Positions 1-420 of a stretch of 420 nt of DNA are shown one piece after another. This DNA comes from Escherichia coli (GTDB lineage Bacteria > Pseudomonadota > Gammaproteobacteria > Enterobacterales > Enterobacteriaceae). A model generated the notes under the pieces. The model made no database searches. It worked only from the letters and a program-made list of their open reading frames with translations, and was not told the DNA's origin. Made by a program: the position numbers and the translations under genes. Each line of letters starts with the position of its first letter. Positions within the stretch are counted from its first letter, which is position 1. The stretch is from NCBI RefSeq assembly GCF_003334305.1, contig NZ_QOWS01000077.1; one strand, 5' to 3'.

Positions 1-420
1 TCCGGGTGCAGTTCCGGGTCCGGCAGCCGGTTTCCTGCCGGGTCCGTCGCATACGGGATATCGATATCCAGGTTCGCCGCCGTGGTGTGGACGCCCGTCA
101 GCCTTCCCGTGTCACTGTAACGGTACTCCCGGCTCTCCTGCGGGCCGCTGATGCGGATTAGCTGTCCGTTGTCGTTCCAGTCGTAGTCCCGGTCAAGCTG
201 CGGGAGGTTCAGGTGCCTGCTCTGTAGCTGCCCTGTGAGGGTGTATGTGCTGGTCAGTTCATATGCTGCATTACTGCCTGCCATGCTGCCGAAGCTGCGC
301 ACCGTCTCACGGTGCAGCCGGTCCCGCGTGTACTCGACCAGCGGTGTTCCGCCCAGCTTCATCCCCGCAAGATAACCGCTGCCATACGTCAGCCACTCCA
401 CCGGCGGCAGACCGTCCGGC
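1..420 (-). CDS. rhs: Rhs-family (rearrangement hotspot) YD-repeat protein, conserved core region; internal fragment, partial at both ends (gene continues beyond both window edges). Paralog not assignable from this window.
   Basis: Seen in sequence: the minus-strand frame with codons at + 419..417 down to 5..3 is open for all 139 codons, while the other five frames each have stops (for example + strand TAA 118-120, TGA 149-151, TAG 159-161 and 184-186). The translation carries YD-repeat-like motifs (DRDYDWNDNGQLIRISG, REYRYSDTGRLTG, LVEYTRDRLHRETVRSFG) that fit the Rhs/YD consensus of conserved Y-x-Y-D followed by G-x-L and a downstream G. GC3 is about 78% by hand count, consistent with genuine coding in this frame. 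Established knowledge: enterobacterial Rhs cores are GC-rich and built from such repeats. No database search was run. Confidence 0.88.

What the first reader, a model, noticed from the sequence alone, without database searches (positions are those of the whole stretch)
1..420. Likely multi-copy near-identical repeat, with recombination and assembly-collapse risk
Rhs cores are usually present in several nearly identical copies per genome and were first described as recombination hotspots. A 420-bp core window may therefore be ambiguous in placement, and short-read assemblies often collapse or chimerise these loci.
Basis: established knowledge. Interest (0 to 1): 0.25.

Follow-up and report, generated by a model that had tools for sequence, protein, structure and literature searches.

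The report
Single-copy E. coli Rhs toxin core fragment
The window is an ordinary internal piece of a well-known E. coli Rhs toxin gene (the RhsG/RhsH type), and in 98% of the complete genomes that carry it there is only one near-identical copy.

Summary
The 420 bases are an internal coding fragment, on the minus strand, of an E. coli "RHS element core protein". They cover codons 794-934 of about 1411-1421, in the YD-repeat shell of a polymorphic toxin linked to type VI secretion. So the Rhs identification is right.

The predicted copy number is not. Among 5,426 complete E. coli genomes, 300 hold the window at about 95.7% identity or more. These give 306 places: median 1 per genome, maximum 2. 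A control with the homologous segment of K-12 rhsA at the same stringency gave 10,721 places in 3,779 genomes, median 3. The "several near-identical copies" rule therefore holds for the RhsA/B/C/F subfamily, not for this RhsG/H window.

Paralogues measured in the same genome are 82-91% identical to the window (longest exact runs 52-77 bp). K-12 rhsA/B/C-type cores are about 75% identical.

Two nuances:
- The identical 420 bp sits at two different chromosomal loci in different strains: the T6SS-1 locus near fadE, and the yncG-pptA locus behind RhsE.
- Six of the 300 genomes carry two near-identical copies. The one examined, 13P460A, has one at each locus, inside an 847-bp exact repeat.

Hybrid cores show that recombination has occurred here. 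This is known biology, of low interest.

The parts
3..419 (-). Internal coding fragment (139 complete codons) of an Rhs core gene. It is gene nt 2382-2801 (codons 794-934) of the 1411-aa RhsG-type protein of strain GE3, and nt 2391-2810 of the 1421-aa RhsH-type protein of SE11. It encodes part of the YD-repeat shell. There is no start or stop codon in the window.
   Evidence: Open frame; NF041261 positions 794-931/1261, E 1.4e-81; position in the genes; the full-length host genes score 2619-2640 bits against a curated cut-off of 2000; dN/dS 0.26-0.27 against RhsE/RhsD.
78..179 (-). One recognisable RHS/YD repeat unit (aa 81-114 of the translated fragment: DNGQLIRISGPQESREYRYSDTGRLTGVHTTAAN).
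   Evidence: Pfam PF05593 RHS_repeat, i-Evalue 4.7e-06, model 1-35/38. Window coordinates were converted from the aa positions by hand.
268..319 (.). Longest stretch (52 bp) that is exactly identical between the window and the RhsD/RhsE-type cores (SE11 RhsE in tandem at the same locus, K-12 rhsD). Overall identity to these is only 84%.
   Evidence: SE11 RhsH nt 2492-2543 against RhsE. Coordinates converted by hand.
1..77 (.). 77-bp stretch exactly shared with the closest same-genome paralogue seen, the GE3 hybrid Rhs at the yncG-pptA locus (90.7% overall). In the gene it continues 6 bp beyond the window, giving 83 bp.
346..420 (.). 75-bp stretch exactly shared with the same GE3 paralogue. Its gene-5' edge (window base about 420) coincides with the point where that hybrid allele switches from RhsE-like to RhsH-like sequence.

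Best explanation
The window is an internal piece of the conserved, GC-rich 'core' of an Escherichia coli Rhs gene of the RhsG/RhsH subfamily. The protein is a polymorphic toxin of about 1,410-1,420 aa. Its YD repeats, which include the 139 residues encoded here, form a closed beta-shell ('cocoon') around a variable C-terminal toxin tip. [quoted passage not shown] A small downstream gene gives immunity. The window has no function of its own beyond coding for shell residues.

As a repeat it is effectively single-copy. Each genome normally has either an RhsG-type copy (hcp-vgrG-rhs at the T6SS-1 cluster next to yafV/fadE) or an RhsH-type copy (behind RhsE between yncG and pptA). Having two near-identical copies is rare.

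Shown here: coding frame, family, loci, copy numbers, identities and mosaic structure. Inferred from the literature on relatives: cocoon architecture, autoproteolysis and T6SS delivery.
For: Identity and frame. GC is 59-67% across the window, which fits the GC-rich core described in PMC2935791.

Solved relatives by sequence: Tse5 8cp6 (E 9.6e-11) and P. protegens RhsA 7q97 (E 1.3e-06). The cocoon, autocleavage and VgrG mechanism are described in PMC8765631.

Loci:
- SE11, AR_452, ETEC-2265 and 120899 have vgrG-RhsE(dsORF-e4)-IS-DUF3969-Rhs(window)-dsORF-h1-pptA.
- GE3 and STN0717-20 have hcp-vgrG-Rhs(window)-yafV beside a complete tss cluster.
- These are positions 6 and 1 of Jackson et al. 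2009, who also report three subfamilies (ABCF, DE, GH) and both core types at position 6 in SE11.

Copy number: 306 places in 300 genomes at about 95.7% or more, against 10,721 places in 3,779 genomes for the rhsA-type control.

Paralogue identities: 84.0% (SE11 RhsE), 82.4% (13P460A RhsE), 90.7% (GE3 hybrid), 83.8/83.6% (K-12 rhsD/E), 75-76% (K-12 rhsA/B/C).

Different toxin tips sit on the same core segment: a YkuD-like tip in GE3 RhsG (E 4.2e-05) and an HEFAH/Peptidase_M91-like tip in RhsH (weak, E 0.0025). The DPxGL motif is at aa 1232-1254.
Against: The source genome of the window is unknown, so its own copy number is inferred from 300 public complete genomes, not measured. 'Complete' assemblies could in principle contain collapsed repeats. 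The identity cut-offs come from converting megablast E-values myself, although they are checked by the weakest rows returned (97.6%, 721 bits; 95.7%, 641 bits). In some strains the gene that holds the window is a pseudogene lacking its N-terminus, beside a deleted T6SS (HKUOPY1, ST540), so 'active effector' does not hold everywhere. At position 6 the RhsH copy is not directly preceded by vgrG, so its secretion is unproven.
Confidence: 0.93

Rival explanations
1. One reading: in its own genome the window is one of several near-identical Rhs core copies, so that placement is ambiguous and short-read assemblies collapse or chimerise it.
For: This is true for the other subfamily: K-12 rhsA and rhsB are 100% identical and rhsC 98.7% in the homologous segment, with a median of 3 near-identical places per genome. 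It is true for this window in at least one genome: in 13P460A the window is 100% identical in RhsG and RhsH, inside an 847-bp exact repeat. Six of 300 genomes have two near-identical places.
Against: 294 of 300 genomes have one place at about 95.7% or more. The best same-genome paralogue is otherwise 90.7% or lower, with exact runs of 77 bp or less.
Confidence: 0.04
2. The window lies in a decayed, non-functional Rhs remnant (a pseudogene or orphan core fragment), not in an active effector gene.
For: In 2 of the 9 window-bearing genomes examined (ST540, HKUOPY1) the gene is annotated as incomplete and missing its N-terminus, next to a deletion that removed vgrG and most of the tss genes. Truncated tandem Rhs copies are common at these loci.
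Against: The window has an intact frame. In 7 of the 9 genomes examined the host gene is full length and passes the NCBIfam equivalog cut-off. dN/dS of 0.26 indicates long-term purifying selection.
Confidence: 0.15
3. The + strand ORFs (6..161 and 235..375) or a structured RNA, rather than the minus-strand frame, are the real feature.
For: Two + strand ORFs of 46-51 aa are listed.
Against: They are short and start with GTG. They lie antisense to a frame that is open across the whole window and matches a curated family at E 1.4e-81. There is no Rfam match at E<=1 and no internal direct or inverted repeat.
Confidence: 0.01

Closest known systems
E. coli RhsG/RhsH elements (Hill nomenclature; RhsGH subfamily; positions 1 and 6 of Jackson et al. 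2009, PMC2935791)
   Same: 100% nucleotide identity to annotated RHS core genes at exactly these two loci. The downstream gene is annotated 'RHS element protein dsORF-h1' at position 6, in tandem behind RhsE (dsORF-e4). The hcp-vgrG-rhs arrangement is found at position 1.
   Different: Nothing of substance.
E. coli K-12 RhsA/RhsB/RhsC (RhsABCF subfamily), the classical near-identical 'rearrangement hot spot' repeats
   Same: Same protein family and architecture (NF041261). The homologous segment aligns over the whole window.
   Different: Only 75-76% nucleotide identity to the window, with exact runs of 15 bp or less. These cores are truly multi-copy (median 3 near-identical places per genome), whereas the window's type has a median of 1.
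E. coli RhsD/RhsE (RhsDE subfamily)
   Same: Same family. RhsE lies in tandem directly upstream of the window-bearing RhsH at position 6. Hybrid E/H cores exist.
   Different: 82-84% identity to the window; longest exact run 52 bp.
Structurally solved T6SS Rhs effectors: P. aeruginosa Tse5 (8cp6) and P. protegens RhsA (7q97; PMC8765631)
   Same: The window's 139 aa align to their YD-repeat shell regions (E 9.6e-11 and 1.3e-06). The expected mechanism is the same: a cocoon enclosing an autocleaved toxin, mounted on VgrG.
   Different: These are distant homologues from other genera, matched by sequence only. No structure was predicted or compared here.

Membership tests
RHS element core protein (NCBIfam NF041261, equivalog) | Whole-protein score at or above the curated cut-off of 2000 bits over the 1261-position profile | tested here: met
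   The window alone scores 274.9 bits over profile positions 794-931, because it is a fragment. The genes that contain the window at 100% identity score 2640.3 (SE11 RhsH) and 2618.9 (GE3 RhsG) over positions 1-1261.
YD / RHS repeat proteins (Pfam PF05593, TIGR01643) | Recognisable YD/RHS repeat units | tested here: met
   PF05593 at E 4.7e-06 inside the window. TIGR01643 gives 6 stretches at E 3e-52 in the full protein.
Rhs polymorphic toxin architecture | [quoted passage not shown] | tested here: met
   TIGR03696 at aa 1181-1261. DPIGL and DPLGL motifs are present. The tips differ between RhsG (YkuD-like) and RhsH (weak Peptidase_M91-like). Small downstream ORFs are present. All of this lies outside the window, in the host genes.
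T6SS-delivered Rhs effector | Genetic linkage to vgrG/hcp/tss genes and an N-terminal plug or PAAR-type region | tested here: inconclusive
   Met at position 1: hcp-vgrG-rhs beside a full tss cluster. N-terminal DUF6531 at E 2.2e-19. At position 6 vgrG precedes RhsE, not the window-bearing RhsH. In ST540 and HKUOPY1 the T6SS is deleted. Actual secretion cannot be tested with these tools.
RhsG-H subfamily (as against RhsA-B-C-F and RhsD-E) | High core identity within the subfamily and much lower identity to the other two; location at the fadE-side T6SS locus or in tandem with RhsE | tested here: met
   GE3 RhsG and SE11 RhsH are 95.6% identical over 3.7 kb and 100% in the window. The window is 82-84% identical to D/E types and 75-76% to A/B/C. 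Loci as described. 'dsORF-h1' annotation. The subfamily scheme is in PMC2935791.
   300 genomes, 306 places, median 1, maximum 2. The positive control with the rhsA-type segment gives a median of 3. Met only in 6 of 300 genomes, e.g. 13P460A.
Recombination substrate ('rearrangement hot spot') | Evidence of exchange between non-allelic cores in or around this segment | tested here: met
   An 847-bp exact identity island around the window lies between RhsG and RhsH cores that are otherwise 95.5% identical. The simulated longest run has a median of 122 bp and a maximum of 370 bp in 20,000 trials. An E-5'/H-3' hybrid core switches at the window's edge. Present-day rates and rearrangements cannot be tested here.

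The most novel reading that the evidence does not exclude
The segment that holds the window may be a preferred exchange point between non-allelic Rhs cores. It lies in an 847-bp island of perfect identity between the RhsG core at the T6SS-1 locus and the RhsH core about 1.3 Mb away, although those cores differ by 4.5% elsewhere. In the hybrid allele present at about 95.7% identity or more in 1,026 genomes, the RhsE-like to RhsH-like switch falls at the window's gene-5' edge. This would mean that gene conversion between Rhs loci is more frequent than the 'infrequent, if any' stated by Jackson et al. 2009. If so, core segments as well as toxin tips would be shuffled between loci.
Probability: 0.3. 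Interest if true: 0.3.

Novelty: already known. Interest (0 to 1): 0.1.

Why it matters
It matters mainly as a practical correction. 'Rhs core' does not automatically mean 'collapsed multi-copy repeat'. The risk depends on the subfamily: high for RhsA/B/C/F-type cores (median three near-identical copies) and low for this RhsG/H segment (one copy in 98% of genomes). For anyone placing this window there is one caveat. The sequence alone cannot say which of two chromosomal loci it comes from, because identical copies sit at the T6SS-1 locus in some strains and behind RhsE in others. It adds no new biology beyond what is known about Rhs toxins and their mosaic evolution.

Tried and rejected
- Internal repeats in the window: none.
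- Structured RNA: no Rfam match at E<=1.
- + strand ORFs: short, antisense to the real frame, rejected.
- Plasmid-borne or mobile copy: only 10 of 72,556 plasmid records match. Several look like chromosome pieces or mislabelled records, for example a 4.8-Mb 'plasmid'.
- Listing all places in one genome is not possible with the search tool, which gives one row per record. I therefore used E-value cut-offs as identity filters and located paralogues by synteny guesses. This worked for GE3 and 13P460A. One range request failed on size.
- The original Wang, Zhao and Hill 1998 paper on RhsG/RhsH is not held in the library. What I say about it beyond PMC2935791 is from memory.
- PMC7216683 uses the names RhsG and RhsH for different small EDL933 genes, so it was not used as evidence.
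- SE11 has four megablast places. Only the two at the yncG-pptA locus were retrieved.

Full report
**What is in the window.** The minus strand, frame 1, is open across all 420 bases; every other frame has stops. Its 139-residue translation matches the curated NCBIfam model NF041261 'RHS element core protein' at profile positions 794-931 of 1261 (E 1.4e-81). It contains one Pfam RHS repeat (E 4.7e-06). GC is 59-67%, well above the roughly 51% E. coli average (my own knowledge), as described for the GC-rich Rhs core (PMC2935791). There is no internal repeat and no Rfam family. The nearest solved relatives by sequence are the shell regions of the T6SS Rhs effectors Tse5 (8cp6) and P. protegens RhsA (7q97).

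**Where it lives.** The window is 100% identical to annotated RHS core genes in many complete E. coli chromosomes. It occurs at two different loci in different strains.

- In SE11, AR_452, ETEC-2265 and 120899 it lies in a 4,266-bp gene followed by 'RHS element protein dsORF-h1' and pptA. This gene sits in tandem behind a vgrG-linked RhsE-type core with dsORF-e4, with ISAs1/ISEc1 copies in between.
- In GE3 and STN0717-20 it lies in the hcp-vgrG-rhs unit of a complete type VI secretion cluster next to yafV/ivy/fadE.
- In HKUOPY1 and ST540 it is at that same place, but the T6SS is largely deleted and the Rhs gene lacks its N-terminus.

These are 'position 6' (yncG-pptA) and 'position 1' (dnaQ-fadE) of Jackson et al. 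2009. [quoted passage not shown]

The window is gene nt 2382-2801 (codons 794-934) of the GE3 gene and nt 2391-2810 of the SE11 gene. The full-length proteins pass the NF041261 cut-off (2619-2640 bits against 2000). They also carry the Rhs-associated core end, DPxGL motifs and an N-terminal DUF6531 region. Their toxin tips differ: YkuD-like in GE3 RhsG, and an HEFAH-containing, weakly Peptidase_M91-like tip in RhsH.

**Copy number, the actual claim.** Megablast against 5,426 complete E. coli genomes found 8,539 places in 3,656 genomes (median 2, maximum 5). But only 284 records have a best match of 99% or more; most best matches are 80-95%.

I then used the E-value limit as an identity filter. 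With megablast scoring, 420 matches give 776 bits and each mismatch costs about 5.5 bits. For a full-length match, E<=1e-190 therefore corresponds to about 95.7% identity or more. The weakest row returned, 97.6% at 721 bits, fits this.

| Query and filter | Genomes | Places | Per genome |
|---|---|---|---|
| Window, about 95.7% or more | 300 | 306 | median 1, max 2 |
| K-12 rhsA segment (control), about 95.7% or more | 3,779 | 10,721 | median 3, max 4 |
| GE3 hybrid allele, about 95.7% or more | 1,026 | 1,108 | median 1, max 3 |

For the control I used the homologous 398 bases of K-12 rhsA at E<=1e-180, which is the same identity cut-off; its weakest row was 95.7%. Within K-12, rhsA and rhsB are 100% identical and rhsC is 98.7% identical in this segment.

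**How similar are the other cores in the same genome?** At E<=1e-130 (about 87% or more), 40 of the 60 window-bearing genomes listed have one place and 20 have two. In GE3 the second place is the Rhs at the yncG-pptA locus, 90.7% identical with a 3-bp indel and exact runs of 77 and 75 bp. D5 and IBS28 show the same pairing. The tandem RhsE core is 84.0% identical in SE11 (longest exact run 52 bp) and 82.4% in 13P460A. K-12 rhsD and rhsE are 83.8% and 83.6%. K-12 rhsA/B/C are 75-76%, with exact runs of 15 bp or less, which is too diverged for megablast, so 'places' undercount the total number of Rhs cores. A 100-150-base read from the window would thus differ at roughly 9-25% of its positions from any paralogue and should place uniquely. 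Only short shared k-mers (77 bp or less) could branch an assembly graph. Outside the window, GE3 has longer exact repeats between Rhs copies: 176 bp with the position-6 gene, and 371 bp with a truncated tandem copy that lacks the window region.

**The exceptions.** Six of the 300 genomes have two near-identical places. I found one of them, 13P460A. It carries both RhsG (position 1) and RhsE-RhsH (position 6). The window is 100% identical in both, in direct orientation, inside an 847-bp exact repeat, while the two cores are 95.5% identical overall. The other five were not examined.

**Recombination.** An 847-bp run without a difference is far beyond chance for two sequences with 163 differences in 3,749 positions. 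The simulated longest run has a median of 122 bp and a maximum of 370 bp in 20,000 trials, and the analytic P is about 2e-14. The same identity island is seen between GE3 RhsG and SE11 RhsH.

The GE3 position-6 gene is a hybrid:
- It is RhsE-like (95-100% to SE11 RhsE) up to alignment column about 2390.
- It is H-like with private differences through the window region.
- It is 100% identical to SE11 RhsH from column about 2820 through the tip and dsORF-h1.
- The E-to-H switch falls at the gene-5' edge of the window-homologous segment.

These are footprints of past exchange between cores, in line with the family's history and with the displacement model of Jackson et al.. They are inferences from sequence, not measured rates. 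Which arrangement is ancestral cannot be told from these data.

**Mechanism.** The frame, the family, the loci and a dN/dS of 0.26-0.27 against RhsD/E types show a protein-coding segment under purifying selection. By homology with solved Rhs effectors, these residues would form part of the beta-spiral cocoon that encloses the autocleaved C-terminal toxin, with the effector mounted on VgrG for T6SS delivery (PMC8765631). This last step is inferred and was not tested here.

**Verdict.** This is a correctly recognised but ordinary piece of a well-described gene family. The specific prediction of near-identical multi-copy sequence with a risk of assembly collapse is not borne out for this subfamily, apart from six of 300 genomes. 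The general remarks about paralogues and recombination are right. It is already known and of low interest.

**Main limits.**
- The source genome and its reads are unavailable, so copy number and depth in that genome are inferred from public complete genomes.
- Only nine window-bearing genomes were inspected for context.
- The original 1998 description of RhsG/RhsH could not be read.

Noticed in passing
L007 12198-15858 (GE3) and L016 12198-15858 (13P460A): A frameshifted second Rhs gene lies in tandem behind RhsG at the T6SS-1 locus. Its 5' 2.3 kb is 95% like RhsG/H. Its 3' part is about 80% identical to the RhsG core and is followed by ydcD, as at K-12 rhsE. It lacks about 560 bp that include the window-homologous region. 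It is preceded by the same ISEc1-hypothetical-DUF3969 module that precedes RhsH at position 6, which suggests an RhsH-element fragment transplanted between loci.
   Followed up: partly
L010 20944-25182 (GE3, yncG-pptA locus): A single hybrid Rhs core (RhsE-like 5', RhsH-identical 3' with dsORF-h1) stands where SE11 has two tandem genes. The allele's window-homologous segment is present at about 95.7% or more in 1,026 of 5,426 genomes. Whether it arose by deletion between tandem cores, or is the ancestral form, is not resolved.
   Followed up: partly
L014 (HKUOPY1) 5290-12350; L015 (ST540) 5566-11047: A deletion joins a truncated tssM to a truncated vgrG/Rhs N-terminus, removing most of the T6SS-1 cluster. 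The window then lies in an annotated pseudogene.
   Followed up: no
L012 (ETEC-2265) 12656-14420; L013 (120899) 12656-14420: The upstream RhsE-type core is annotated as frameshifted in these strains, while the window-bearing RhsH is intact.
   Followed up: no
L001 12050-12823, 18833-20962; L007 9186-11551, 16881-18017: ISAs1/ISEc1 ('H-repeat') transposase genes, often with internal stops, flank every RhsG/RhsH element inspected. These are further dispersed repeats that could complicate assembly more than the window itself.
   Followed up: no
L001 13545-14060 (RhsH tip) against L007 18566-19060 (RhsG tip): The same core segment is attached to unrelated toxin tips: HEFAH motif with a weak Peptidase_M91 hit (E 0.0025), against a YkuD-like L,D-transpeptidase fold hit (E 4.2e-05). 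Targets and immunity partners were not analysed.
   Followed up: partly
plasmid collection, NZ_OL790696.1: A 4.8-Mb record filed as a plasmid carries the window at 100%. It is evidently a chromosome mislabelled in the collection. The other plasmid hits are few (10 of 72,556 records).
   Followed up: no
literature: PMC7216683: This paper names two small EDL933 genes (z0702, z0272) RhsG and RhsH. This clashes with the Hill nomenclature used by the NCBI product names (dsORF-h1) and could mislead annotation transfer.
   Followed up: no
window 6-161 and 235-375, + strand: Two GTG-initiated ORFs of 51 and 46 aa lie antisense to the Rhs frame. They are most likely chance products of the high GC content.
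   Followed up: partly
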